Shown in pieces: positions 10,589-62,743 of a stretch of 64,000 bases of DNA. The stretch lies in assembly GCA_051955835.1 (NCBI GenBank), contig JBQCGH010000105.1, positions 41,242-105,241 of the forward strand, read 5' to 3'. The notes below the pieces were generated by a model that was given only the letters and a program-made list of their open reading frames with translations, was not told the DNA's origin and made no database searches. Position numbers and translations under genes: made by a program. This DNA is from Gemmatimonadales bacterium. Lineage in GTDB: Bacteria; Gemmatimonadota; Gemmatimonadetes; Gemmatimonadales; GWC2-71-9. Position 1 is the first letter of the stretch; every line of letters starts with the position of its first letter.

Positions 10589-11569
10589 CTAACCAGCGAC
10601 GGAAATGGGCGGGAGCGCCGCTTCGATCTCGGCGCGGTGTGGCTCCTCCCAAGGCGGAAGCCGGAGGGACTGGCCCAGGCGGGCGAGCGGCTCGTCGACC
10701 GTGAAGCCGGGACTCATGGTCGCCACCTCCAACAGCACGCCTCCCGGCTCGCGGAAGTAGATGGACTGGAAATAGGTGCGGTCGCGCACGGGCGTGACCT
10801 CTACGCCGAGACGCACCAGCTCCTCCCGCAACCGCAGCTGTCCTTCGGCGCCGTCGATGGCGAACGCCACGTGATGGACCGTGCCCAGGCCGTTGCGCGC
10901 GGCCGGCGCCGCGGGTGATTCAACGAGATCCACCAGATGCCCCGGAGCGTCGTGCGAGACGCAGAGGCGGCTGCGGGTGCCCTCCTCACCCACCATCCGG
11001 AAGCCGAGCACCTCGGTCAGGAACCGGGCGGTCGGACGGCGGTCGCGCAGGAGCAGGGTCACCGCGTGCAGGCCGCGGATCGCCAGCTCGGGGCTCACGC
11101 TACACCCCGGCCAGGGTGGTCGTTCATCGCGCGCGTCCGGCACCAGCTCGACGACAAGCCCGGACGGATCGCGCAGTGCGAGCGGAGATGCACCGAACCG
11201 TGCCTTCCTCTGCTCGACCCGAACACCGTCAGCCTCGAGTCTCGCACGCCAGTGGTTCTCGGCGCCGGCGGGAATCGAGAACGCGGTCGCCACGATCTGG
11301 CCGGTGCCGTGCACCCCGACGGGCACACTTTGGCCACCGTAGGGAAACGTCGTCCAGATCGTGCCCGGGTCGCCACGCTCGGTCCCATAGTAGAAGTGGT
11401 GGACGTTATGGTTGTCGAAGTTGACCGTACGCTTGACCAGCCGGAGGCCGAGCCGGCCGGAGAAGAAGTCCAGGTCCGGCTGGTCGCGGTCGACCGTGGC
11501 GGTCACGTGGTGGAGGTGGCGCAGCGGCGGCCGAGTGGCCGCGGTCGCCCCAGCGTCGGCTCCGCTCAT
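10589..11569 (-). CDS. Two-domain VOC superfamily protein, ring-cleaving dioxygenase-like (MhqA/YfiE-type), paralog 1
   Basis: 326 aa. [31 protein letters not shown], then HAVTLL, HHVAFAI and [19 protein letters not shown] form the duplicated glyoxalase/extradiol fold with His/His/Glu metal ligands. Confidence 0.85.
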
Positions 11570-11724
11570 TGCTCGACGGGCCGCCCCAGGAGGTCCTGGA
11601 AATCGAGGCTGAAATCGACGGCCGGTGAAGTGGGTATCATCTTGACCTGAGTAAGAGGCATGGGAGGGAACGTGTCCGCGGCCCGGGCATCTGGCAAGCC
11701 GCGGATCCGGCGTATACTTGGAGC

Positions 11725-12843
11725 ATGGCCGAGGCGATCCGCGTCTCCTACCTCGTCCGCGCGCCGGCGGAGCGTATCGCCGAGCGGGCGGAGGCGCTCA
11801 TGCTGGAGCAGGCGGTGGAGCTGCCCCGCGCCGTCGCCATGCGCGACCCGTGGGTGGCGGAGCACGTGCTCGGCCAGGTCGAAGCGATTCGCCCCGCGGG
11901 ACGCGAGTGCCATCGGGTGACGATCGCCCAGCCGCTCGTGACCGCCGCGGCCGACCCCGCGCAGCTGCTCAACGTGCTGTTCGGCAACTCGTCGCTGCAG
12001 CCGGATGTGGTGCTGGATGACGTGGCGCTCCCGCGCTCCGCCTTCGACTGGCTCCCCGGGCCGCGGGTGGGTATCGCCGGCCTGCGGGAGATCGCTGGCG
12101 TCGGCGGACGTCCGCTGCTCGCGACCGCGCTCAAGCCCATGGGACTCCGTCCCGTGGCCCTCGCGGCGCTGGCGGGCACGTTCGCCCGGGCCGGCATCGA
12201 TCTTATCAAAGACGATCACGGTCTCGCCGACCACGCATTCTGTCCCTTCGAGGCACGGGTCGAAACGTGCGTCCGCGCGGTGGACGATGCCGCCCGAGAG
12301 ACCGGGCGCCGTGCACTGTACGTGCCCAACCTGATCGGTGCGCCGGACCGGGTCATGCGTCAGCTCGCCTTCGCGCGGGAGGCGGGTGTGCGGGCGGTGA
12401 TGGTCTCACCTATGGTGACCGGGCTTCCCTTCCTGTGCCAGCTCGCCGCCATGGCAGACGGTCTCCCGATTGTGGCCCACCCCGCGCTGGCCGGCACGCT
12501 TCGGCTGTCGGAGCCGCTGCTCCTCGGAAAGCTGTTCCGCTGGTTCGGCGCGGATGCCGTGATCTTCCCGCATGCGGGAGGGCGGTTCACCTACAGCCTC
12601 GAGACCTGCCGCGCGATCGCGGAGGCGCTGCGTGCCGACCACCCGCGGGCACGCCCCGCGTTGCCGGCGCCTGCCGGCGGCATCAAGGTCGACCGCATCG
12701 GCGAGCTGCTCGAGGTCTACGGGCCCGACTGCATCCTGCTCATCGGCGGGAGCCTGTACGACCGCGGTGACGCCCTGTTCGAGCGCACCCGGGCGCTGGT
12801 GGACCGCGTGACGCGCGCCGCGGCCGCGGAGCCGGTGCCGTGA
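11725..12843 (+). CDS. RuBisCO-like protein (form IV RuBisCO large-subunit homolog), short variant
   Basis: 372 aa. ALKPMGL (KPxxG), GIDLIKDDHGL (carbamyl-Lys KDD motif), VAHPALAG, FPHAGG, PAGGI and LLIGGS align by eye with RuBisCO large-subunit barrel motifs, but several carboxylase residues are replaced. GGAG lies 4 nt upstream of the ATG. Confidence 0.85.
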   Translation: MAEAIRVSYLVRAPAERIAERAEALMLEQAVELPRAVAMRDPWVAEHVLGQVEAIRPAGRECHRVTIAQPLVTAAADPAQLLNVLFGNSSLQPDVVLDDVALPRSAFDWLPGPRVGIAGLREIAGVGGRPLLATALKPMGLRPVALAALAGTFARAGIDLIKDDHGLADHAFCPFEARVETCVRAVDDAARETGRRALYVPNLIGAPDRVMRQLAFAREAGVRAVMVSPMVTGLPFLCQLAAMADGLPIVAHPALAGTLRLSEPLLLGKLFRWFGADAVIFPHAGGRFTYSLETCRAIAEALRADHPRARPALPAPAGGIKVDRIGELLEVYGPDCILLIGGSLYDRGDALFERTRALVDRVTRAAAAEPVP

Positions 12844-13283
12844 GCACGCACGTGCGGCAAACCGATCCGTTCCGATGGGAAGGCGTCGACGTCAAACCAT
12901 ATAAGAACGACGGTACGCACTTCGCCGGCGTCACCCGGCAGCTGCTCTTTTCCGGCGGCGAGGGCCTCGCCTGCGAGCTCCGCTATTTCGAGGTGGCGCC
13001 GGGCGGCTGGTCGTCGCTCGAGCGGCATCAGCACGCGCATGCGGTGATGATCGTGCGCGGCCGGGCCCGGGTCCTGGTCGGCGACCGGGTGATCGACGCC
13101 GCCACGCACGATCTCGTCCGCGTGCCTCCGCTCACCTGGCATCAGTTCCAGCCGATCGGCGCGGAACCGCTCGGCTTTCTCTGCATGGTCGATTGCGCAC
13201 GCGACCGGCCCGAGCGGCCCGACCCCGACGCGCTGGCGGCCCTGCGGTCGCGCCCCGATATCGCGACGTTCATCAAGGTGTGA
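12840..13283 (+). CDS. Cupin domain protein (147 aa)
   Basis: FEVAPGGWSSLERHQHAHAVMIVRGRARVLVGD...LVRVPPLTWHQF corresponds to cupin motifs 1 and 2 with His ligands. The GTG start overlaps the RLP stop (GTGA 12840-12843). Confidence 0.85.
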   Translation: MSTHVRQTDPFRWEGVDVKPYKNDGTHFAGVTRQLLFSGGEGLACELRYFEVAPGGWSSLERHQHAHAVMIVRGRARVLVGDRVIDAATHDLVRVPPLTWHQFQPIGAEPLGFLCMVDCARDRPERPDPDALAALRSRPDIATFIKV

Positions 13284-13316
13284 CCGCGGCGAGCCCGCCG
13301 CGGGCGGAGGTGTCGT

Positions 13317-14270
13317 ATGGATCTGACCGGCATTCATCACCTGACCGCGGTCTCCGCAGACATCCGCGGCAACTATCGGTTCTACACCGAGACGCTCGGC
13401 ATGCGTCTGGTGAAGCGCAGCGTCAATCAGGACGACGTCAGCGCCTACCACCTGTTCTACGCCGATGCCGTCGGTACACCCGGCACCGACCTCACGTTCT
13501 TCGACTGGAAGATGCCGCGTGAGCGCCGCGGCACGCATAGCGTGGTGCGCACCCATCTGCGCGTGAACGGACGCGAGACGCTCGAGTGGTGGGCCGCATA
13601 CCTCACCCAACGCGGCGTCCTCGCCGCCCCCATCGTGGAGCGCGACCGCCGGCTCACGCTCGACTTCGAGGATCCCGAAGGCCAGCGTCTTGCTCTCGTC
13701 GACGACGGCGGGCGGGGGGACCCCCCGACACCCTGGGATCGGAGCCCCGTGCCGGCCGAGCGGCAGATTCGCGGCCTCGGCCCCATCGCCATGAGCGTGC
13801 CGAGTCTCCGCGCAACGGATGCGGTACTGACACGGGTCATGGGACTGCGGGCCGTGCGGGAGTACCCGGTGCCCGAGGACACGCGCCACACGGTGCACGT
13901 CTACGAGATGGGCCAGGGCGGCGCACACGCCGAGCTCCACGTGGTTGTGCAGCCTGAGCTCCGGCCCGCGCGGCTTGGCGCGGGTGGGGTGCATCATGTC
14001 GCGTTCCGCACCTCGAGCGTGGAGGAGTATCACGCCTGGCGCGCCCGGCTCGACGAGCTGCAGATCCCCAACAGCGGCGAGATCGACCGCTACTACTTCC
14101 GCAGCCTGTATTTCCGGGAGCCGAACGGCGTGCTGTTCGAGATCGCCACGGATGGCCCCGGCTTTGCCGTCGATGAGGATCCGGCCACGCTGGGTGAGCA
14201 CGTCGCCCTGCCGCCCTTCCTCGAGCCTCGCCGTGAGGCGATTCTCGCCGGCCTGGAGCCGATCGCATAG
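13317..14270 (+). CDS. Two-domain VOC superfamily protein, ring-cleaving dioxygenase-like (MhqA/YfiE-type), paralog 2
   Basis: 317 aa. [45 protein letters not shown], then HHVAFRT and [24 protein letters not shown] lies 8 nt upstream, and the gene starts 33 nt after the cupin stop. Confidence 0.88.
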
Positions 14271-14357
14271 CCATACGGCCCCGCTGGGCGGCAACGGGCG
14301 CTATGCGCTTGATCCACGTCTCTGGTCGATCACCAGGATGGCAGACGCACTTCGAGC

Positions 14358-14386
14358 ATGAGGGCATGTCCATGACATGCCCTCAT
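14358..14386 (+). terminator. Perfect hairpin ATGAGGGCATGTC-CAT-GACATGCCCTCAT followed by TGTTTCC; probable terminator of the RLP-cupin-VOC unit
   Basis: 13-bp perfect stem with a 3-nt loop, read directly. It lies 88 nt after the VOC2 stop in a lower-GC spacer. The T-tract is weak. Confidence 0.55.
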
Positions 14387-14458
14387 TGTTTCCGGCTCTT
14401 CGGTGATGCACGGCGGCGCTGGCGCCCCCACGCCGGGAGTTCGATACTTCCGGCATGA

Positions 14459-14880
14459 CGCTGCCCCGAAGCCGAGCATCATCTCTCCGTCGCCGTCGAG
14501 GCCGTAGTTACCCGGTTCGGCGCGATGGTTCGGCAGGTGGGCCGCCGGTACCGCCTCGACGAGGCTGATCTGGACGAGGTCATGCAGGAGGTGCGGATCC
14601 GGCTGTGGCGGGCCCAGCGCACGAGTGAGCAGATCGGCGAGGTCTCCACGTCCTACGTATACCGCACGGCGACCTCGGCCGCGCTCGACGTGATCCGCCG
14701 CCGCCGGTCCCGACGGGCCGAGCATCACCACTCGATCGACGCCGACGACCGAACGGTTACCCTCGCGGCGCCCACGCCCGATCCTCACGGCGCGTTGGAG
14801 GGCTCCGAGATGGCCCGGCAGACCCGCGCCGGGTCCATGGCATGCTGGGCGGCGGCGCGGGTCAGCGGGGTGACGAGACA
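14459..14880 (+). pseudogene. ECF-type sigma-70 fragment (region 2 only), probably truncated or degenerate
   Basis: VEAVVTRFGAMVRQVGRRYRLDEADLDEVMQEVRIRLWRA....YVYRTATSAALDVIRRRR is a clear sigma-70 region 2. An in-frame stop at 14456 leaves no canonical start before the internal ATG 14525. I found no recognisable region 4 in any frame. The frame then runs on, without a stop, antisense through the next gene. The 3' boundary is approximate. Confidence 0.35.
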
Positions 14881-34995: not shown

Positions 34996-35669
34996 ATGGG
35001 AGCTTCTTTGCCTCTGGCGGCCGACGCCGTCTCTCCTGGCACTCGCAAGAGTCCTCGACACGCCGTGCTGGTCGAGCTCAAGCGAGCGCGGCGTCTCACC
35101 GTGAAGGGCCTGGCCCAACGCCTTGGTGTCTCCCTGAATGCTGCTCGGCATCACTTGAAGGAGCTGGAAGCAGAAGGTCTGGTGGCCTACGAGCGGGAGC
35201 ATCATGGGGTAGGCGCGCCGGCGCACGCCTATGGCCTCACCGCCGACGGGGAGGCGCTTTTTCCGCGCCGTTACGAGGCAACCCTGACGGCGCTCCTCGA
35301 TCATTTGATCGAGCGAGATGAGCGCGAAACCGCCGTTGCATTGCTCGAATCCCGGTTCGCCGACCTGAGTCGCCGGCTACGGGCTGAGCTTTCGCAGCGT
35401 CCGCCCAGCGAGCGCCTCCAGGCGCTCGGCCAGGCCTTATCTGAAGAGGGCTATATGGCGGAGGTGGCGGACCGAGACGGTGTCGTCACGCTGACTGAAC
35501 ACAATTGCGCCATTCCAGCGGTCGCCAAGCGGTTTCCCGAGATCTGTGCCGCCGAGGCCCGCTTCCTCGCCGAAGTGCTCGGGGCCGAGGTCGACCGGCG
35601 GGAGCACATGCTGGCCGGCTGCAGCACCTGCGAATACCACGTGCGGTTCAACACCGCTCAGGAGAAGGC

Positions 35670-35673
<4 letters not shown>
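34996..35673 (+). CDS. sufR: SufR-type Fe-S cluster-sensing transcriptional regulator
   Basis: Winged-helix N-terminus ([30 protein letters not shown]) plus a C-terminal Cys cluster (C-x12-C-x24-C-x2-C). It is the first gene of the suf operon and is ATGA-coupled to sufB. Confidence 0.8.
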
Positions 35674-37109
<1,436 letters not shown>

Positions 37110-37128
37110 CCACGGGGAGACGCAAAGA

Positions 37129-37887
37129 GTGCTGGAAATCAGAGACCTTCGCGCGAGCGCAGGCGACAAGGAGATCCTCAGGGGCATCGACCTCACGGTC
37201 AATCCCGGCGAAGTGCATGCGGTCATGGGACCCAATGGCTCCGGCAAGAGCACGCTCGCCCAGGTCCTGGCGGGTCACCCTGCGTACGAGGTCACCGGTG
37301 GGTCGATCCGGTACCGTGGCCAGGACCTCCTCGAGCTCGAGCCTGAGGCGCGGGCCCAGGCGGGTCTGTTCCTGGCGTTTCAGTATCCGGTCGAGATCCC
37401 GGGTGTCAGCCACGCGTATTTCCTCCGGGCTGCGTACAACGAGATCCGAAAGGCGAACGGGCTCGACGAAGTGGATTCGATGGACTTTCTCGACCTCCTC
37501 GAGGAGAAGCTCAAGGTCGTGGAATGGGAGCCGGAGATCATGAGCCGGGCGGTCAACTCGGGATTTTCGGGCGGCGAAAAGAAGCGCAACGAAATTCTGC
37601 AGATGGCTGTGCTGGAGCCGACCCTGGCCATCCTCGACGAGACCGATTCCGGCCTCGACATCGACGCGCTCCGTATCGTCGCGGCGGGGGTGAACAAGCT
37701 GCGGCGGCCGGACAACGCCACCATCGTCGTGACGCACTATCAGCGGCTGCTCAACTACATCGTACCCGATTTCGTTCACGTGCTCTCGGCAGGACGTATC
37801 GTCAAGTCGGGCGGTAAGGAGCTCGCCCTCGAGCTCGAGGCCCGGGGTTATGAGTGGCTGGAGGACGAGGTGGGAGCCGCTTCGTGA
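37129..37887 (+). CDS. sufC: Fe-S cluster assembly ATPase SufC
   Basis: Walker A GPNGSGKST, signature FSGGEKKR and Walker B ILDETDSGLD. GTG 37129 (VLEIRDL...) has GGGGAGA upstream. The alternative GTG 37099 overlaps the sufB end. Confidence 0.93.
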   Translation: MLEIRDLRASAGDKEILRGIDLTVNPGEVHAVMGPNGSGKSTLAQVLAGHPAYEVTGGSIRYRGQDLLELEPEARAQAGLFLAFQYPVEIPGVSHAYFLRAAYNEIRKANGLDEVDSMDFLDLLEEKLKVVEWEPEIMSRAVNSGFSGGEKKRNEILQMAVLEPTLAILDETDSGLDIDALRIVAAGVNKLRRPDNATIVVTHYQRLLNYIVPDFVHVLSAGRIVKSGGKELALELEARGYEWLEDEVGAAS

Positions 37888-39191
37888 GCGAAGCTTTCGT
37901 TCAGGAGTTCGAGGCGCGGGCCGGCGCGGCGACCGCTGAGGGACCGGAGTGGCTGGAGCCGATCCGGCGGGCGGCCATGACGCAGTTTGCGCTGACTGGA
38001 TTTCCCGGCGCGCGGGATGAAGAGTGGCGCTTCACGCCCATCGCCCCGATCGCCCAGGGCACCTGGCGGCCGGCCCAGGCTAGCGCGCGTGAGGTGAGCC
38101 CAGAGCAGCTCGCGCCCTTCCTCTTCGGGCGTGACGACTGGCCCACCCTCGTGTTCGTGAACGGGACATACGCGGAGGGTCTGAGCCGGACCGGCTCCCT
38201 GCCGCCGGCGGTTCGGGCGGGCAGTCTGGCCGACATGCTTCGTGTCGACGGCGCCTGGCTCGAGACCCATCTGGCGCGCCACGCGCCGGTCGAAGGGTCT
38301 CCCTTTACCGCGCTCAATACCGCTTTCTTCGACGATGGCGCTGTCGTGCACGTCGCCGCGGGCGCCGAGCTCAGCGCGCCCGTGCACGTCCTCTTCGTGA
38401 CCACCGCGGAGGCCGGCGGCGCGGTCGTGCATCCGCGGAACTTGCTGGTGATCGAGCGCGGTGCCCGGGCCGCCATCATCGAGAGCTACGTCACGCTGGC
38501 CCTCGGTCAATCGTACTGGACCAACCCGGTGACCGAGGTGAGTGTGGGGCCTGGGGCCTGGGTCGAGCACACCCGCATCCAGCGCGAGAGCGAGCGCGCA
38601 TATCATGTCGGGCTCACCCACGTCGACCAACATCGCGACAGCCACTATCGGTCGTTCACGCTGGCGATGGGCGGGGCGCTGGCGCGGCACAACCTGCACG
38701 TCCGTCTCAATGACGAAAACATCGAGACCCTGATGTACGGCCTGTATCTCACGCGTGGTGAACAGGTGGCCGATAACCACACCGCCATCTACCACGACCA
38801 GCCACACTGCCGGAGCTGGGAAGTCTACAAGGGCATCCTCGACGGACGCTCCCGCGCGGTCTTCAACGGCAAGGTCTTCGTCAAGCCCGAGGCGCAGAAG
38901 ACTGATGCCAAACAGACCAACCGCAACCTGCTGCTGAGCAATGGGGCCAAGGTGGATACCAAGCCCCAGCTCGAGATTTTCGCCGACGACGTGAAGTGCA
39001 CGCACGGCGCCACCGTAGGCCGGCTCGACGAGCTGGCGCGGTTCTACGCCCGGAGCCGCGGCATCCCGGCCGCGGCCGCCGACCGTCTGCTGACTTATGC
39101 GTTCGCCGCGGAAGTGATCGACGAGGTCGCGCTCGCCCCGGTTCGTACGGAGCTCGATCGGCTGGTGCTCGATCGCCTTGGGGGTCTCTGA
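37884..39191 (+). CDS. sufD: Fe-S cluster assembly protein SufD
   Basis: The beta-helix C-terminal region ...NGKVFVKPEAQKTDAKQTNRNLLLS..AKVDTKPQLEIFADDVKCTHGATVG is the SufD/SufB signature. The GTG overlaps the sufC stop (GTGA). Confidence 0.9.
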   Translation: MSEAFVQEFEARAGAATAEGPEWLEPIRRAAMTQFALTGFPGARDEEWRFTPIAPIAQGTWRPAQASAREVSPEQLAPFLFGRDDWPTLVFVNGTYAEGLSRTGSLPPAVRAGSLADMLRVDGAWLETHLARHAPVEGSPFTALNTAFFDDGAVVHVAAGAELSAPVHVLFVTTAEAGGAVVHPRNLLVIERGARAAIIESYVTLALGQSYWTNPVTEVSVGPGAWVEHTRIQRESERAYHVGLTHVDQHRDSHYRSFTLAMGGALARHNLHVRLNDENIETLMYGLYLTRGEQVADNHTAIYHDQPHCRSWEVYKGILDGRSRAVFNGKVFVKPEAQKTDAKQTNRNLLLSNGAKVDTKPQLEIFADDVKCTHGATVGRLDELARFYARSRGIPAAAADRLLTYAFAAEVIDEVALAPVRTELDRLVLDRLGGL

Positions 39192-39198
39192 GCTCGCC

Positions 39199-40437
39199 AT
39201 GACCGCCACCGCGGCCCTCCCGCTCGATATCGAGCGCGTGCGACAGGATTTCCCCATCCTCTCGCAGCGCGTGCGGGGCAAGCCGCTGGTCTATTTGGAC
39301 AACGCCGCCACCAGCCAGAAGCCGCGCCACGTCATCGACGCCGTGTCGCGGTTTTACGCGCTGGAAAACGCGAACATCCATCGCGGGGTCCACTATTTGA
39401 GCGAGCGCGCGACGGCCGAATACGACGAGGTTCGCGCCCGGGTGGCCCGTTTCCTCAACGCCCCTTCCGCCGACACGATCGTCTTTACGCGCGGGACCAC
39501 CGAGGCGATCAATCTCGTCGCGCAGAGCTGGGCGCGCACCACGCTCGTGCCTGGGGACGAAATTCTGGTGACGGGCATGGAGCATCATTCGAACCTGGTA
39601 CCGTGGCAGCTCGTGGCAGCCCAGACCGGCGCGGTGGTGCGGGCCGTGCCCATCACGGACGTGGGCGAGCTCGACCTGCAGGCGTTCGATCGCATGCTCA
39701 CCGAGCGTACGCGCCTGCTCGCCGCGGTGCATGTCTCCAATGCGCTCGGCACGATCAATCCGGTGCGATGGATGGTGGCGCGAGCGCGGGAACGTGGCAT
39801 CGTGACCCTTGTTGACGGCGCGCAGTCAGTGCCTCACCTCCCGGTGGACGTTCAGGCGATCGGCTGCGATTTCTTTGCGTTCTCGGGACACAAGGTCTTC
39901 GGCCCGACGGGCGTCGGGGCGCTTTACGGACGCGCGGAGCTGCTCGATCGCATGCCGCCCTGGCAAGGCGGCGGCGATATGATCGAGTCCGTCACCCTGG
40001 AGCATAGCACCTGGGCGCGCCCCCCAGCCCGCTTTGAGGCCGGAACGCCCATGATCGCGGAGGTCATGGGACTCGGCGCGGCGCTCGAGTACGTCGACAC
40101 CATTGGTCACTCGGCCATCGGCACCTGGGAAGAGGAGCTCCTCGGCTGCGCCACCGAGCGAATCCGAGAAGTCGATGGCGTGCGCCTCGTAGGGACAGCC
40201 CGCGAGAAGGCGGGCGTGCTCTCGTTCGTGCTCGATGGCGTGCATCCGCACGATGCGGGCACGGTGCTCGATGACGACGGCATTGCGGTCCGCGCGGGCC
40301 ATCACTGTGCCCAGCCCGTCATGCGGCGATTCGGCATCCCGGCGACGGTTCGGGCCTCGTTCGCCTTTTACAACACCCGGGATGAAGTCGACGCGTTGGT
40401 GCGGGGCGTGGAGCGGGTCCGGAGCGTGTTCGCCTGA
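39199..40437 (+). CDS. sufS: Cysteine desulfurase SufS (class V aminotransferase, group II)
   Basis: YLDNAATSQKP, FSGHKVFGPTGVGALYG (PLP Lys) and RAGHHCAQP (catalytic Cys loop). ATG 39199 lies 8 nt after the sufD stop. Confidence 0.95.
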   Translation: MTATAALPLDIERVRQDFPILSQRVRGKPLVYLDNAATSQKPRHVIDAVSRFYALENANIHRGVHYLSERATAEYDEVRARVARFLNAPSADTIVFTRGTTEAINLVAQSWARTTLVPGDEILVTGMEHHSNLVPWQLVAAQTGAVVRAVPITDVGELDLQAFDRMLTERTRLLAAVHVSNALGTINPVRWMVARARERGIVTLVDGAQSVPHLPVDVQAIGCDFFAFSGHKVFGPTGVGALYGRAELLDRMPPWQGGGDMIESVTLEHSTWARPPARFEAGTPMIAEVMGLGAALEYVDTIGHSAIGTWEEELLGCATERIREVDGVRLVGTAREKAGVLSFVLDGVHPHDAGTVLDDDGIAVRAGHHCAQPVMRRFGIPATVRASFAFYNTRDEVDALVRGVERVRSVFA

Positions 40438-43967: not shown

Positions 43968-44783
43968 ATGGCCCACATCGTCGCGATCGCCAATCAGAAG
44001 GGCGGCGTCGGAAAGACCACAACTGCGGTCAATCTCGCCGCGTCGCTAGCCATCGCTGAACGCCGCACGCTGATCCTTGATGCTGACCCGCAAGGCAACG
44101 CGACCAGCGGTGTGGGCATCGTCAAGCACGAGCTGCAGGTGTCTCTCTACGACGCCCTCGTCGAGCACCGGGCACCCGCCGAAATCGTCGTACCCGTCCC
44201 CGGCCTTCCTCATCTCTCCGTGCTGCCGGCAACCCAGGATCTAGTCGGTGCCGAGCTCCAGCTTGTCGATCGGCCCCATCGCGAGTCGGCGTTGCGCGCC
44301 GTCCTCGAGCCACTCCAGTCTGACTACGACTACGTGGTCGTGGATTGTCCGCCCTCGCTGGGCATGCTCACGCTCAACGTGCTTGCTGCCGCGAACACGG
44401 TACTGATTCCCATTCAATGCGAGTACTACGGTCTCGAGGGCATCTCGCAGTTGCTGAACACCGTGCGGCTCGTGCAGCAGAATTTCAATCCGGGGCTGGC
44501 CATCAGCGGCGTCCTGCTTACCATGTACGATGCGCGTCTCAATCTCTGCCGCCAGGTTGCCGATGATGCCAAGGAGTACTTCGGGGGCAAGATGTTCGTC
44601 ACGCCGATTCCGCGGAATGTCCGTCTGGCCGAGGCGCCCAGCTTCGGCAAGCCGATCCTCCTTTACGACGTGCAGTCGGTCGGCGCCAAGAGCTATCTCT
44701 CCGTCGCGCAGGAGCTCATGCGGCGGATCGAGAACACACCCGCGCCTGAGATCCCGGAGCCGCTGCCCGAGGTAACCACATGA
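43968..44783 (+). CDS. parA: Chromosome partitioning ATPase ParA (Soj)
   Basis: MAHIVAIANQKGGVGKTTTAVNLAASLA (deviant Walker A), DADPQGNATSG and VVVDCPPSLG. Confidence 0.95.
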   Translation: MAHIVAIANQKGGVGKTTTAVNLAASLAIAERRTLILDADPQGNATSGVGIVKHELQVSLYDALVEHRAPAEIVVPVPGLPHLSVLPATQDLVGAELQLVDRPHRESALRAVLEPLQSDYDYVVVDCPPSLGMLTLNVLAAANTVLIPIQCEYYGLEGISQLLNTVRLVQQNFNPGLAISGVLLTMYDARLNLCRQVADDAKEYFGGKMFVTPIPRNVRLAEAPSFGKPILLYDVQSVGAKSYLSVAQELMRRIENTPAPEIPEPLPEVTT

Positions 44784-45673
44784 CCGAGACCAAGCGATTG
44801 GGACGAGGACTGGAAGCCCTGCTGGGGCCGGTATCACGCGAGCAGGCGGAGGCGGCGGGGGCCTTGCGCGAGGTACCGATTGGAAGCGTCAAGCCGAACC
44901 CCTATCAGCCTCGCACCAGAATCGACGAGGGTCAGCTCGACGAGCTGGTCGCCTCGATTCAGGCGTCCGGGCTGCTGCAGCCCGTCGTCGTGCGGCCACG
45001 CAATGGGGGGTACGAGCTCATTGCCGGCGAGCGCCGCTGGCGAGCGGCCACGAAACTCGGGTGGAGCAAGATTCCAGCAGTGGTGAGGGACGTCGACGAC
45101 CAGACGCTCCTGACCCTCGCGCTTATCGAGAATCTGCAGCGCGACGATCTTTCTCCCATCGACGAAGCAGCGGGCTATCAGCGGCTCGGCGCCGAGTTCA
45201 GCCTCCCGCACGCGGAGATCGCTCGACTGGTGGGGCGAAACCGCGCGACGGTCAGCAATCTCCTCCGCCTCCTTCAGCTTCCAGTCGAGGTCCAGTCCCT
45301 GGTACACGAGCGAAAGCTGTCGGAGGGTCATGCGCGCGCCCTCCTGAGCCTGGCCGAGCCTGACTCGATGATTCGCCTGGCGCGCCAGGCAGTGGACGAG
45401 GGCTGGTCGGTGCGCGAGATGGAGTCGAGGGTTCGCGGGGATGCCCCGACCGCCGCTTCGCCCAGTCCCGAGACGATCCGGCGGACCCGACCGACCCGGG
45501 TCATCACAGCCGACGCCAAGCGCGTTGAGGACGCCCTGCGCAAGCACCTCGGCACCGACGTGCGCGTCACGACGCGCCGACGTGGGCGCGGCTTCCTCAC
45601 CTTGAGCTATTACTCCAACGACGATCTCGCCCGTCTCCTCGAGCTGATCCTCGGTCGGCCGTTCCAAGGATGA
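44780..45673 (+). CDS. parB: Chromosome partitioning protein ParB (Spo0J)
   Basis: NPYQPRT, LLQPVVVRP, ELIAGERRWRAA (ParB box) and an HTH around HAEIARLVGRNRATVSNLLRLL. The ATGA overlaps the parA stop. Confidence 0.95.
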   Translation: MTETKRLGRGLEALLGPVSREQAEAAGALREVPIGSVKPNPYQPRTRIDEGQLDELVASIQASGLLQPVVVRPRNGGYELIAGERRWRAATKLGWSKIPAVVRDVDDQTLLTLALIENLQRDDLSPIDEAAGYQRLGAEFSLPHAEIARLVGRNRATVSNLLRLLQLPVEVQSLVHERKLSEGHARALLSLAEPDSMIRLARQAVDEGWSVREMESRVRGDAPTAASPSPETIRRTRPTRVITADAKRVEDALRKHLGTDVRVTTRRRGRGFLTLSYYSNDDLARLLELILGRPFQG

Positions 45674-59635: not shown

Positions 59636-60781
59636 ATGCCGACTGCCGCCGCCGCGCCGCCGCGGGACTATCGGGCGGAGTTCCCCATCTTCCGCCGCGC
59701 GGTCTACCTCACCCGCTGCTCGCTCGGCGCCTTGTCCGCGCGGTCGCGCGCCCGGGTCAACGAGTGCCTGGATCTTTGGGAGACCCTCGGCGCCGCGGCG
59801 TGGTACGAGATCTGGTGGACCGCCCTGGCCGAGCTGCGCGCGCGCTACGCACGCTGGATCGGCGCTGCCGTCGGGTCGGTGGCGCTCCACCCGAACATCT
59901 CGACCGCGCTCACCTCGGTGGCGGAGTCGCTCGACTATCGCCGCCGGCCACGTGTCGTGGTCACGAGCCTCGATTTCCCGACTCTCGCGTATCAATGGCT
60001 GGCGCGTGCCGGTGAGGGCATCGAGCTGGTGGTGGTCGAGAGCCCCGACGGGGTGAGCGTGCCGGTGGAGGCGCTGGCACGCGCGGTCGATGGCCGGACC
60101 GCGCTGCTCGCTACCAGCCACGTCTTCTTCACCAGCGGGGCCATCCAGGACCTGCGCGCGCTGGCCGACCTGGCCCACGCGCGCGGCGCGTTTTTCCTGG
60201 TGGACGGCTACCATGGCGTCGGCCAGGTACCCGTGGACGTCGCAGCGCTCGATGTGGACTTCTACTGCAGCGGCGGACTCAAATGGATGCTCGGCGGACC
60301 GGGTGTGGCGTTCATGTACGCCCGGGCGGAGCTCTGGCCGTCCCTGCTGCCGCGCGCCAGCGGCTGGTTCGCGCACCGCGACCAGTTCCGCTTCGATCCG
60401 CGCACGCTCGAGCTTCACGACGACGCCCGCCGGCTCGAGGGCGGCACGCCGGCCATCGCCGCCGTCTACGCGCAGCTGGGTGGACTGGACATCCTGGAGG
60501 AGCTCGGGCCCGAGGAGATCCGACGCCGTACCATGGCGCTCGCCGAGGATCTGATCGAAGCGGCCCGAGCGGCCGGGCTCGAGCCGAAGGTCGCCGCCAC
60601 TCCCGCCGAGCGCACCGGGATCGTCATGCTGCCGCGCGCCACCCCGGCCGCCGACGTGCGCCGACTGGCCGAGGCCGGCATCGTGACCGACGCACGGCCC
60701 GGCCACGTGCGCGTGTCGCCATACTTCTACAACGTCCCCGACGATCACCGGGCCGCCATCGAGCGTCTGATCCGTGACTAA
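59636..60781 (+). CDS. Class V aminotransferase-fold PLP enzyme (kynureninase/cysteine-desulfurase-like)
   Basis: ...FLVDGYHGVGQVPVDV..DFYCSGGLKWMLGGPGVAFMY... (PLP Lys in GGLKW). ATG 59636 has a TATATT box 7 nt upstream. Confidence 0.8.
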   Translation: MPTAAAAPPRDYRAEFPIFRRAVYLTRCSLGALSARSRARVNECLDLWETLGAAAWYEIWWTALAELRARYARWIGAAVGSVALHPNISTALTSVAESLDYRRRPRVVVTSLDFPTLAYQWLARAGEGIELVVVESPDGVSVPVEALARAVDGRTALLATSHVFFTSGAIQDLRALADLAHARGAFFLVDGYHGVGQVPVDVAALDVDFYCSGGLKWMLGGPGVAFMYARAELWPSLLPRASGWFAHRDQFRFDPRTLELHDDARRLEGGTPAIAAVYAQLGGLDILEELGPEEIRRRTMALAEDLIEAARAAGLEPKVAATPAERTGIVMLPRATPAADVRRLAEAGIVTDARPGHVRVSPYFYNVPDDHRAAIERLIRD

Positions 60782-61571
60782 CAGCCCCTACCGCCATCTG
60801 GGCGACAACAAGCTGCCCACCGAAGACGAGCAGCTCCTCGAGAGCCCTCCTCCGCTCCGCCCCGAGCAGCTCTTCCTCAAGTCCGATTCATGGCGCGTGC
60901 TTCGCATCATGGGCGAGTTCGTCTGGGGCTTCGACAACCTGGCGGACGTCAGCGACGGGGTGACCATCTTCGGCTCGGCGCGCACCCTCCGCGGCGACCC
61001 CTACTACGTGAAAGCGGTGCAGACGGCCATGCTGCTCGCGAAGGCGGGCATCCCCGTGATTACGGGCGGCGGCCCCGGCATCATGGAGGCGGCGAACAAG
61101 GGGGCCTCCGAGGCGGGCGGCGTCTCGGTCGGGTGCAACATCGAGCTGCCGTTCGAGCAGGGCTCGAATCCGTATCTCACCCGGAGCCTGAATTTCAAGT
61201 TCTTCTTCGTGCGAAAGACGATGTTCGTGAAGTACGCTACCGCGTTCATCGTCTTTCCCGGCGGCTACGGGACGCTCGACGAGCTCTTCGAGGCGCTGAC
61301 CCTGATCCAGACCGGCAAGGTCAAACACTTCCCCGTGATCCTGTTCGGGAGCGCCTACTGGGCGGGCCTGGTGGACTGGCTCACCCGCACGGTGGCCGAA
61401 GAGCGGAAAATCAATCCCGCGGACCTCCTCCTGTTCCGCGTGACCGATGACCCCGAAGAGGCGGCGCGCATCGTCATCGAGGCCCGGGCCGAGAAACCGG
61501 TCGACGAGGTCGCCCGCATGACCAACGAGTACATCATCCGGGCTCCAGCCAAGCGCAAGGATGCGACATGA
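60774..61571 (+). CDS. LOG family / TIGR00730 Rossmann-fold nucleotide-binding protein
   Basis: [17 protein letters not shown] and [22 protein letters not shown] are the LOG (PGGxGTxxE) signature. Confidence 0.9.
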
Positions 61572-62743
61572 CCCGACCGTCGGCGCAGTACCTTCGCGGG
61601 CAGCGCATCGAGCCCACGGCCATCACGGGGCGCGAGACCGTCGCCGCGCTGGTCGACAACGCGTTCCTCGCGTACAACGCCGGGCGCTTGCGCGAGGGCT
61701 GCCAGCTCTTCACCCAGCGCATGCTCGAGTCCGACACCACGGTCGGCATGACGCTCACGGGTGCCATGACGCCGGCGGGCATCGGCATGAGCTGTCTCAT
61801 TCCGCTCATGGAAGCGGGCTTCGTGGACTGGGTGATTTCCACCGGGGCCAACCTCTATCACGACGCTCACTTCGCGCTCGGGCTCCCGATGCATCGGGGA
61901 ACCCCCAATGCGGACGACGTCGAGCTGCGCGACAAGGGCGTGGTGCGGATCTACGACATCTTCTTCGACTACAACGTGCTGCTCTCGACCGACAGGTTCG
62001 TCCGCGAGGTATCGGCGCGGCCCGAGTTCCAGCGGCCGATGAGCACGGCGGAGTACCACTACCTGCTCGGCGGGTACGTGCGCGAGCGCGAGCAGGCCCT
62101 CGGCCTGAGCCGCCGCTCGGTGCTGGCCGCCGCCCACGAGCTCGAGGTGCCGCTGTACACCAGCTCGCCAGGCGACAGCTCGATCGGCATGAACGTGGCG
62201 GAGCAGGCCCTTGCCGGCAGCAAGCTGCGGTTCGATGTGAGCGCAGACGTGAACGAGACGGCGAGCATCGTGCTCGACGCCAAGCGGACGGGGGGGAAAA
62301 GCGGGGTGCTGATCGTGGGCGGCGGCAGCCCCAAGAACTTCATGCTGCAGACCGAGCCACAGATCCAGGAGGTGCTCGGCATCGACGAACGTGGCCACGA
62401 CTATTTCCTGCAGATGACGGATGCGCGCCCCGACACCGGGGGTCTGTCGGGCGCTACGCCGGCGGAGGCAGTGAGCTGGGGCAAGATCGACCCCGACCAG
62501 CTGCCGGGCACGGTCGTCGTGTACGCCGACAACTCGATCGCGCTTCCGCTGCTCACGGGCTACGCGATGGAGAAGCGCGCGGCGCGGCCGCTGAAGCGGC
62601 TCTACGGCAAGCGCCAGGCGATGATGGATCGACTGCTCACGGAGTACCGCTCCGCGCTCGCCTTCAGGGACGAGCGGGCGGAGGAATCGCTGTCGCACAT
62701 GCACCCTGGGGCGGGTGGAGCGGAGACGACGGCGCGGCGATAG
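61568..62743 (+). CDS. Deoxyhypusine synthase-like protein
   Basis: ...[12 protein letters not shown]...[20 protein letters not shown]...VGGGSPKNF... matches the deoxyhypusine synthase family fold. The ATGA overlaps the LOG stop. Confidence 0.88.

What the first reader, a model, noticed from the sequence alone, without database searches (positions are those of the whole stretch)
11725..12843. The RLP is unusually short and carries KPM and KDDH in place of the KPK and KDDE motifs
The following comes from by-eye alignment to RuBisCO large-subunit landmarks.
- The KPxxG lysine sits at about residue 137, against 175 in spinach numbering. The N-terminal domain is therefore roughly 40 residues shorter.
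- The second Lys of KPK is Met (LKPMGL).
- The carbamyl-Lys motif reads IKDDH, so the Glu204-equivalent metal ligand appears to be His.
- VAHPALAG keeps a His294-like residue but has Pro where Arg295 would be.
- PAGGI has Ala where Ser379 would be.

This rules out carboxylase chemistry. It also suggests a modified metal site compared with the characterised enolase/isomerase RLPs.
Basis: partly seen in the sequence, partly recalled or inferred. Interest (0 to 1): 0.55.

Follow-up and report, generated by a model that had tools for sequence, protein, structure and literature searches.

The report
Known-type RuBisCO-like methylthioribulose-phosphate isomerase gene
This gene encodes an ordinary member of a known, already characterised group of RuBisCO look-alikes that recycle the sulfur waste product methylthioadenosine rather than fix CO2.

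Summary
Every residue-level observation is correct. The ORF 11725-12843 is 372 aa and cannot start further upstream. K137 aligns with RuBisCO K175, there is no K177, and the motif reads K162-D-D-H165 where RuBisCO has KDDE. H252-P253 replace H294-R295, R287 replaces K334, and A317 replaces S379.

None of this is peculiar to this protein. The same signature and the same length occur in the two biochemically characterised DeepYkr-clade RuBisCO-like proteins:
- R. rubrum RLP: 374 aa, 43% identity, with ALKPQGL and IKDDHGMAD.
- R. palustris RLP: PDB 3QFW, 378 aa, E 1e-95; TM-score 0.90-0.95 to an AlphaFold model of the window protein.

His at the E204 position is found in 130 of 150 family representatives, and Gln in 16.

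The next gene (12840-13283) overlaps the RLP stop codon. It is a full-length homologue (54% identity) of the R. rubrum cupin 1-methylthio-xylulose-5-phosphate methylsulfurylase. This RLP-cupin pair is kept in 71 of 80 loci from many phyla, and the two are fused into one protein in 26 of 150 representatives.

The metal site differs from the MtnW enolase but not from the characterised isomerase. Low interest.

The parts
11725..12843 (+). RuBisCO-like protein gene, 372 aa, DeepYkr clade. Predicted 5-methylthio-D-ribulose-1-phosphate 1,3-isomerase.
   Evidence: Pfam RuBisCO_large 73 bits. PDB 3QFW E 1e-95 over the full length. 43% identity to the R. rubrum RLP over 368 aa with 2 gaps. AF2 model pLDDT 96.4; Foldseek top hit 3QFW with TM 0.90/0.95.
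11986..11988 (+). Codon for N88, equivalent to RuBisCO N123. The MtnW enolase has its general base Lys98 here.
   Evidence: MAFFT alignment. Asn in 138 of 150 representatives.
12133..12141 (+). K137-P138-M139. K175 and P176 are conserved, and Lys177 is absent because of a one-residue deletion. The Met slot is variable in the family.
   Evidence: K in 146 of 150 and P in 147 of 150. Third position: M 51, L 24, R 23, V 22, Q 18, I 9.
12208..12219 (+). K162-D163-D164-H165. These are the candidate carbamyl-Lys, the Asp metal ligand, and His in place of Glu204.
   Evidence: K in 147 of 150 and D in 147 of 150. Last position: H 130, Q 16 of 150. The same KDDH occurs in 3QFW and in the R. rubrum RLP.
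12478..12483 (+). H252-P253, equivalent to H294 and R295 (Arg replaced by Pro, as also in MtnW).
   Evidence: H in 144 of 150 and P in 145 of 150.
12583..12585 (+). R287 in the loop-6 position of RuBisCO K334.
   Evidence: R in 137 of 150.
12673..12681 (+). A317-G318-G319, equivalent to S379-G380-G381 (phosphate-binding loop, with Ser replaced by Ala).
   Evidence: A 84 and G 50 of 150 at the Ser379 position.
12840..13283 (+). Cupin gene, 147 aa. Its GTG start overlaps the RLP stop codon (GTGA). [quoted passage not shown]
   Evidence: Pfam Cupin_2. PDB 3KGZ E 3e-44 and 3JZV (Rru_A2000) E 3e-42, both over the full length. 54% identity to the R. rubrum protein that NCBI names '1-methylthio-xylulose 5-phosphate sulfo-lyase'. 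Directly downstream of the RLP in 71 of 80 loci.
11691..11718 (+). Promoter-like site (CTGGCA, 16 nt, TATACT) that ends 6 nt before the RLP start codon. It may give a leaderless or near-leaderless transcript.
   Evidence: Consensus scan only: 1 site found against 0.2 expected. Weak evidence.
13317..14270 (+). Two-domain VOC (glyoxalase/ring-cleaving-dioxygenase-like) gene, 34 nt after the cupin gene. Membership of the module is not shown.
   Evidence: Pfam Glyoxalase. PDB 1ZSW E 1.5e-65, then MhqO 3OAJ and PcpA 4HUZ. A homologue follows the cupin only in the closest Gemmatimonadales loci L001, L006 and L010.
10589..11569 (-). Divergently transcribed paralogous VOC gene (37% identity to 13317-14270). 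Membership of the module is not shown.
   Evidence: A homologue lies upstream in L002 and L004 only.

Best explanation
The gene encodes a DeepYkr-clade RuBisCO-like protein, orthologous in function to the R. rubrum RLP and to R. palustris RLP1.

**Proposed pathway role**
- The RLP takes 5-methylthio-D-ribulose 1-phosphate, which is made from methylthioadenosine by MtnP and MtnA encoded elsewhere in the genome.
- It moves the carbonyl by an overall 1,3-proton transfer through enediolate intermediates.
- The product is 1-methylthio-D-xylulose 5-phosphate, with some of the ribulose epimer.
- The translationally coupled cupin encoded next door then removes the methylthio group with a thiol. This gives 1-deoxy-D-xylulose 5-phosphate for isoprenoid synthesis plus methanethiol for methionine resynthesis. 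This is the MTA-isoprenoid shunt.

**Proposed active site**
- It keeps the enolisation core of the superfamily: N88 (N123), K137 (K175), K162 (K201), D164 (D203) and H252 (H294).
- It lacks every carboxylation-specific residue.
- His165, in the Glu204 slot, is a family hallmark.

**Shown here:** homology, fold, motif conservation, and gene pairing and fusion.

**Inferred:**
- The catalytic activity of this particular protein.
- Carbamylation of K162.
- A role for His165 as a neutral metal ligand or hydrogen-bond partner rather than an acid/base. This rests on Gln replacing it in 11% of relatives, including fused ones.
For: **Similarity to characterised members**
- Full-length similarity to the two experimentally characterised isomerases. 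R. palustris RLP structure 3QFW: 324 bits, E 1e-95. R. rubrum RLP: 43% identity, 2 gaps, E 3e-91.
- Other RLP groups score far lower: 137 bits for Geobacillus MtnW, 86 for the C. tepidum RLP, 75 for R. palustris RLP2 and 52 for 3NWR.
- The AF2 model (pLDDT 96.4) superposes best on 3QFW, with TM 0.90/0.95 and rmsd 1.8 A.

**Shared active-site signature**
- The same signature is present in the window protein, 3QFW and the R. rubrum RLP.

**Link to the cupin**
- The downstream cupin is 54% identical to the R. rubrum MTXu-5-P methylsulfurylase. It overlaps the RLP stop codon.
- The RLP-cupin adjacency is kept in 71 of 80 loci across Gemmatimonadota, Proteobacteria, Chloroflexota, Deinococcota, Acidobacteriota, Actinomycetota, Eremiobacterota and others.
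- 26 of 150 representatives at 50% identity are RLP-cupin fusion proteins.

**Annotation and literature**
- JGI names several 73-76%-identical homologues 'S-methyl-5-thioribulose 1-phosphate isomerase'.
- PMC5893883 reports the isomerase activity of the R. rubrum RLP and R. palustris RLP1 (kcat 1.2 and 1.3 per s), the adjacent RPA2169 and RPA2170 genes, and the pathway.
Against: - No enzyme assay exists for this protein. Identity to the characterised enzymes is only 43-50%.
- No mtnP or mtnA gene was found among the ORFs scanned in the 64 kb window. These genes are also unlinked in R. rubrum and R. palustris (locus tags), so this is weak evidence against.
- NCBIfam has no model for this clade. 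NCBI gives the exact protein only a generic name.
- The original mechanistic papers could not be read here. The description of the chemistry therefore rests on PMC5893883 and PMC6302742 and on my own recollection.
Confidence: 0.85

Rival explanations
1. The protein has the same fold and the same cassette, but a different physiological substrate. One example is 5-deoxy-D-ribulose 1-phosphate from 5'-deoxyadenosine, which a 1,3-shift would convert directly to DXP. Another is some other thio- or deoxy-pentulose phosphate in Gemmatimonadales.
For: - Identity to the characterised enzymes is only 43-50%.
- 9 of 80 related loci lack an adjacent cupin.
- The closest Gemmatimonadales loci carry lineage-specific VOC genes next to the pair.
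Against: - The active-site signature is identical to the characterised isomerases.
- The methylthio-specific cupin partner is translationally coupled here, and is fused to the RLP in 26 of 150 relatives. This argues that a methylthio intermediate is handed over.
Confidence: 0.08
2. It is an MtnW/YkrW-type 2,3-diketo-5-methylthiopentyl-1-phosphate enolase of the canonical methionine salvage pathway.
For: The best NCBIfam hits are the two MtnW equivalog models, at E 4e-52 and 4.5e-39. The MtnW structures are the second-best fold matches.
Against: - The scores are far below the curated cut-offs: 177 against 409, and 134 against 513.6.
- The MtnW general base Lys98 is Asn88 here, and the metal ligand Glu176 is His165.
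- No mtnB, mtnX or mtnD-like neighbours are present. The partner is the shunt-specific cupin.
Confidence: 0.03
3. It is a degenerate or non-catalytic RuBisCO remnant, or alternatively a genuine CO2-fixing RuBisCO.
For: It matches the Pfam RuBisCO_large domain. JGI pipelines often label homologues 'ribulose-bisphosphate carboxylase large chain'.
Against: - Six carboxylation residues are replaced.
- The retained residues are 90% or more conserved across 66 diverse relatives. The model is confidently folded. GC3 of 0.88 is typical of coding genes in this window.
- Relatives have measured isomerase activity.
Confidence: 0.02

Closest known systems
Rhodospirillum rubrum RLP (Rru_A1998), a DeepYkr-clade 5-methylthioribulose-1-phosphate 1,3-isomerase of the MTA-isoprenoid shunt
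   Same: - Similar length: 374 aa against 372 aa.
- 43% identity end to end, with 2 gaps.
- Same signature: N at position 123, KP with no K177, KDDH, HP, GGRF, PAGG and IGG.
- Same cupin partner, at 54% identity.
   Different: - In R. rubrum a BrnT/BrnA toxin-antitoxin pair sits between the RLP and the cupin. Here the two genes overlap by 4 nt.
- The K177-slot residue is Gln in R. rubrum and Met here.
- The host is a Gemmatimonadales bacterium rather than an alphaproteobacterium.
Rhodopseudomonas palustris RLP, PDB 3QFW (released 2011), and RLP1 (RPA2169)
   Same: - Best sequence match (E 1e-95) and best structural match (TM 0.90/0.95, rmsd 1.8 A).
- LKPQGL and IKDDHGLAD motifs.
- 378 aa.
- The cupin is adjacent downstream (RPA2170; L055).
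   Different: - About 45-50% identity (for representatives of the same range).
- 3QFW is only 68-70% identical to the three Rhodopseudomonas loci fetched. The exact strain, and whether it is identical to RPA2169, was not established here.
MtnW/YkrW DK-MTP-1-P enolase (Geobacillus kaustophilus 2OEK, B. subtilis 2ZVI)
   Same: - Same two-domain fold (TM about 0.9).
- K175 and K201-D203 equivalents are present.
- H294 is followed by Pro, and H327 is lost.
   Different: - MtnW has Lys98 as its general base where this protein has Asn88.
- MtnW has KDDE where this protein has KDDH, and Ser where it has Ala317.
- MtnW is about 40 aa longer.
- The NCBIfam cut-offs are not met.
Bona fide RuBisCO large subunit (forms I-III)
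   Same: - Same fold.
- Retains N123, K175, K201, D203, H294, G380-G381 and G403-G404.
   Different: - Lacks K177, E204, R295, H327, K334 and S379.
- Lacks the N-terminal arm, the long loop between beta-6 and beta-7, and the C-terminal tail.

Membership tests
DeepYkr-clade RLP (5-methylthioribulose-1-phosphate 1,3-isomerase) | RuBisCO large-subunit two-domain fold (N-terminal alpha/beta domain plus TIM barrel) | tested here: met
   Pfam PF00016. AF2 model pLDDT 96.4 and pTM 0.94. All top Foldseek hits are RLPs or RuBisCOs.
DeepYkr-clade RLP (5-methylthioribulose-1-phosphate 1,3-isomerase) | Closer to the characterised clade members (R. rubrum RLP, R. palustris RLP) than to any other RLP clade | tested here: met
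   324 bits to 3QFW, against 137 (MtnW), 86 (C. tepidum), 75 (R. palustris RLP2) and 52 (3NWR). E 3e-91 to the R. rubrum RLP. No formal phylogenetic tree was built.
DeepYkr-clade RLP (5-methylthioribulose-1-phosphate 1,3-isomerase) | Active-site signature of the characterised enzymes: Asn at 123, K175, no K177, K201-D-D-His, H294-Pro, Arg at 334, Ala or Gly at 379 | tested here: met
   The signature was derived here from the R. rubrum RLP, 3QFW and 150 representatives, not taken from a published definition.
DeepYkr-clade RLP (5-methylthioribulose-1-phosphate 1,3-isomerase) | Genomic pairing with the cupin MTXu-5-P methylsulfurylase | tested here: met
   The cupin overlaps the RLP stop codon. 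54% identity to the R. rubrum enzyme. The pairing is kept in 71 of 80 loci, and 26 of 150 representatives are fusions.
DeepYkr-clade RLP (5-methylthioribulose-1-phosphate 1,3-isomerase) | Conversion of MTRu-1-P to MTXu-5-P and MTRu-5-P | not testable with these tools
   Needs an enzyme assay. The activity is reported for the R. rubrum and R. palustris proteins in PMC5893883.
DeepYkr-clade RLP (5-methylthioribulose-1-phosphate 1,3-isomerase) | Upstream enzymes MtnP (or MtnN/MtnK) and MtnA present in the same genome | tested here: inconclusive
   Not found among 33 ORFs scanned in the 64 kb window. The rest of the genome is not available. These genes are unlinked in the model organisms.
MtnW/YkrW DK-MTP-1-P enolase | Score above the NCBIfam equivalog cut-offs (NF007095, TIGR03332) | tested here: not met
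   177.1 against a cut-off of 409, and 134.2 against 513.6.
MtnW/YkrW DK-MTP-1-P enolase | General-base Lys98 (Geobacillus numbering) and KDDE metal site | tested here: not met
   Asn88 and KDDH at the aligned positions. The role of Lys98 is recalled from Imker et al. 2007, which was not read here.
Bona fide RuBisCO (forms I-III) | Complete set of catalytic residues K175, K177, K201, D203, E204, H294, R295, H327, K334 and S379 | tested here: not met
   K177, E204, R295, H327, K334 and S379 are replaced by a deletion or Met, His, Pro, Ile, Arg and Ala respectively.
[quoted passage not shown] | Full-length homology to Rru_A2000 (PDB 3JZV), with the His-rich cupin motif retained | tested here: met
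   E 2.6e-42 with residues 10-145 aligned to 18-153; the 'LERHQHAH' motif is identical. 54% identity. Activity was not testable.

The most novel reading that the evidence does not exclude
The Lys-Asp-His (or Gln) site that replaces the Lys-Asp-Glu metal site of every other RuBisCO-superfamily branch may be a functionally distinct metal centre. It could have a different metal preference, or it could lack any requirement for Lys carbamylation. I could find no mechanistic analysis of it: 3QFW is a structural-genomics deposit, and no held paper discusses the His. This is a question about the whole clade, not about this gene.

A second, weaker reading is that the two VOC paralogues flanking the pair in the closest Gemmatimonadales relatives extend the shunt, for example by handling the thiol-methylthio adduct.
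Probability: 0.25. Interest if true: 0.35.

Novelty: new member of a known kind. Interest (0 to 1): 0.14.

Why it matters
The finding matters little beyond annotation.
- It lets a gene that NCBI calls only 'RuBisCO large subunit C-terminal-like domain-containing protein' be named as a methylthioribulose-1-phosphate isomerase, and its neighbour as the methylsulfurylase.
- It therefore places the MTA-isoprenoid shunt in Gemmatimonadales. The pathway is characterised only in two purple alphaproteobacteria.
- The survey made on the way shows that the two-gene cassette is much more widespread than those model organisms. At least 596 species-representative genomes carry a KDDH-type RLP. The cassette is often fused into a single protein.
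- The survey also shows that His, or sometimes Gln, at the Glu204 position is a clade hallmark whose role in metal binding remains untested.

Tried and rejected
**Papers not held**
- I tried to read the primary papers: Tabita 2007 MMBR, Erb 2012, Warlick 2012 (both papers), Imker 2008, Singh & Tabita 2010 and Tabita 2008. None is held.
- Whether the literature explicitly discusses the Glu-to-His change is therefore not established here.

**Look-ups and scans that found nothing**
- The exact-sequence contig look-up for the window protein found nothing.
- An Rfam scan of 11300-14600 for a SAM or other riboswitch gave no hit at E <= 1.
- The search for mtnP or mtnA in the window found none among the 33 scanned ORFs.
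- All-against-all clustering of ORFs in 80 related loci, looking for further conserved neighbours, found only the RLP and the cupin to be widely shared. The next real cluster is a short-chain dehydrogenase in 11 loci.

**Ideas considered and rejected**
- A longer upstream start is ruled out by the in-frame stop and the absence of any start codon in between.
- An alignment shift that would place a Glu at the metal position does not occur in the HMMER or MAFFT alignments.
- The MtnW enolase and carboxylase identities were rejected (see rival explanations).

**Limitation**
- Residue-level superposition on 3QFW, and inspection of its metal site, were not possible because coordinates are not exposed by the tools.

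Full report
**1. What is there**

The window is high-GC DNA (68% G+C). The exact protein is on record at NCBI from a Gemmatimonadales MAG, named only 'RuBisCO large subunit C-terminal-like domain-containing protein'.

The ORF 11725-12843 (+) encodes 372 aa. In its reading frame a stop codon lies at about 11626. No ATG, GTG or TTG occurs between that stop and ATG 11725, so the N-terminus cannot be longer. The N-terminus also lines up with the start of the R. rubrum RLP (residue 1 to residue 1) and with PDB 3QFW (residue 6 to residue 9).

Pfam recognises the RuBisCO_large catalytic domain.

**2.

I aligned the protein with MAFFT against four kinds of sequence:
Its length of 475 aa and all landmark positions were checked.
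- The 3QFW and Geobacillus MtnW (2OEK) sequences, as printed.
- 150 representatives of clusters at 50% identity.

The correspondences are:

| Window residue | RuBisCO equivalent | Note |
|---|---|---|
| N88 | N123 | |
| K137-P138 | K175-P176 | |
| M139 | K177/L178 slot | One residue is deleted, so there is no second Lys |
| K162-D163-D164-H165 | K201-D202-D203-E204 | |
| H252-P253 | H294-R295 | |
| I280 | H327 | |
| R287 | K334 | |
| A317-G318-G319 | S379-G380-G381 | |
| G341-G342 | G403-G404 | |

HMMER's own alignment to MtnW places KDDH on KDDE at maximal posterior probability.

The protein is 38 residues shorter than spinach up to K175. This is mostly because the N-terminal arm is missing. 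It also lacks a six-residue loop after H294, about 15 residues before the S379 loop, and about 40 C-terminal residues.

**3. None of this is special to this protein**

- The best solved-structure match is 3QFW, 'Rubisco-like protein from Rhodopseudomonas palustris', released in 2011. It is 378 aa and matches at E 1e-95 over the full length. It reads LKPQGL and IKDDHGLAD.
- An AlphaFold2 model of the window protein (pLDDT 96.4, pTM 0.94) superposes on 3QFW with TM 0.90/0.95 and rmsd 1.8 A. This is ahead of the MtnW enolases and all RuBisCOs.
- I fetched the R. rubrum chromosome locus through its cupin gene. Its RLP (L082:2942-4066, 374 aa) is 43% identical to the window protein over 368 residues, with two gaps. 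It reads ALKPQGL, IKDDHGMAD, AHPTLAG, GGRF, VPAGGM and LIGGN.
- Across the 150 representatives, the Glu204 position is His in 130 and Gln in 16. The conserved positions are Lys201 in 147, Asp203 in 147, Pro295 in 145, Arg334 in 137 and Asn123 in 138. The Lys177 slot is variable (M, L, R, V, Q, I).
- The median length of unfused members is 378 aa.

**4. Context gives the function**

The next gene, 12840-13283, starts with a GTG that overlaps the RLP stop codon (GTGA). It encodes a 147-aa cupin. The cupin matches three PDB entries over its full length: 3KGZ, 3JZV (Rru_A2000) and 3IBM, at E 3e-44 to 6e-42. It is 54% identical to the R. rubrum protein that NCBI names '1-methylthio-xylulose 5-phosphate sulfo-lyase'.

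In the best 80 related loci, from at least eight phyla, the cupin lies directly downstream on the same strand in 71. In 26 of the 150 family representatives the RLP and the cupin are fused into a single protein of 520-785 aa. All-against-all clustering of ORFs in the 80 loci found no other widely conserved neighbour, so the module is a two-gene cassette.

According to PMC5893883:
- The DeepYkr RLPs of R. rubrum and R. palustris (RPA2169, next to the cupin RPA2170) isomerise 5-methylthioribulose-1-P to a 3:1 mixture of 1-methylthioxylulose-5-P and 1-methylthioribulose-5-P. The kcat values are 1.2 and 1.3 per s.
- The cupin then yields DXP and a methylthio-thiol adduct that releases methanethiol.
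- MtnP and MtnA are encoded elsewhere in those genomes.

PMC6302742 summarises the same pathway.

**5. Mechanism**

Shown here: the enolisation core of the superfamily is retained, the carboxylation-specific residues are gone, and the MtnW general base Lys98 is Asn.

Inferred:
- The enzyme binds a divalent metal through K162 (possibly carbamylated), D164 and H165.
- It forms an enediolate and shifts the carbonyl by two 1,2-proton transfers.
- Gln substitutes for His165 in 11% of representatives, including five RLP-cupin fusions. The residue is therefore more likely a neutral ligand or hydrogen-bond partner than an acid/base catalyst.

The published RLP assays contained Mg2+ and no added bicarbonate. 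Which metal the His binds, and whether it binds one at all, is unknown to me.

**6. Verdict**

The motifs and the short length are, however, the normal signature of a known and biochemically and structurally characterised RLP clade. The 'modified metal site' differs from the MtnW enolase but not from the characterised isomerase.

This is a new member of a known kind, in a phylum where the pathway has not been studied. Interest is low. The residual open question is the role of the clade-wide His or Gln at the Glu204 position, and it belongs to the family rather than to this gene.

Noticed in passing
proteins P0139, P0146, P0157, P0162, P0172, P0178, P0182, P0188-P0190, P0198, P0204 and others: 26 of the 150 family representatives at 50% identity are single polypeptides of 520-785 aa in which the RLP is fused to a C-terminal cupin homologous to the window's downstream gene. 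This is a Rosetta-stone link between the two enzymes. I do not know whether it has been described.
   Followed up: partly
window 10589-11569 (-) and 13317-14270 (+); loci L001, L002, L003, L004, L006, L010: Two paralogous two-domain VOC proteins flank the RLP-cupin pair. They are 37% identical to each other and resemble MhqO and PcpA ring-cleaving dioxygenases. Homologues sit next to the pair only in the closest Gemmatimonadales loci and in none of the other 70 loci. This may be inherited synteny or a lineage-specific addition to the module.
   Followed up: partly
window 11691-11724: A promoter-like site (CTGGCA, 16 nt, TATACT) ends 6 nt before the RLP start codon. A GGAG lies only 1 nt before the ATG. 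Together these suggest a leaderless or near-leaderless transcript. This rests on a consensus match only.
   Followed up: no
L082:4136-4685 (R. rubrum chromosome CP077803.1): In R. rubrum a BrnT/BrnA toxin-antitoxin pair is inserted on the opposite strand between the RLP and cupin genes. In 71 other loci the two genes are contiguous.
   Followed up: no
proteins P0162, P0170, P0182, P0186, P0218, P0223, P0243, P0244, P0253, P0257, P0260, P0262, P0263, P0266-P0268: A minority of the family has KDDQ instead of KDDH at the Glu204 position. Five of these are RLP-cupin fusions.
   Followed up: partly
loci L021, L022, L025, L026, L027, L028, L051, L075: Eight KDDH-type RLP loci have no cupin homologue within 4 kb although there is room for one. 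They come from Verrucomicrobia/Opitutales, Rhodothermales, Thermoleophilia, Acidobacteria and Eremiobacterota. What follows the RLP in these loci was not examined.
   Followed up: no
locus L059 (CAMATU010000006.1): A contig labelled 'MAG: Klebsiella pneumoniae' carries a DeepYkr RLP-cupin pair that is 48% identical to the window protein. The taxonomic label looks doubtful, or the region was acquired horizontally.
   Followed up: no
window 11725-12843: There is an annotation gap. NCBIfam has no model for this clade. The best hits are the MtnW models, far below their cut-offs. NCBI gives a generic name, and most JGI entries say 'ribulose-bisphosphate carboxylase large chain'.
   Followed up: yes
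window 35505-40437, 44780-45673 and 60774-62743: Other genes noted while looking for mtnA and mtnP:
- a SUF Fe-S assembly cluster (SufB/D, ABC ATPase, SufS-like aminotransferase)
- ParB
- a LOG-family ('lysine decarboxylase-like') gene followed by a deoxyhypusine-synthase-like gene, which is related to polyamine use

   Followed up: no
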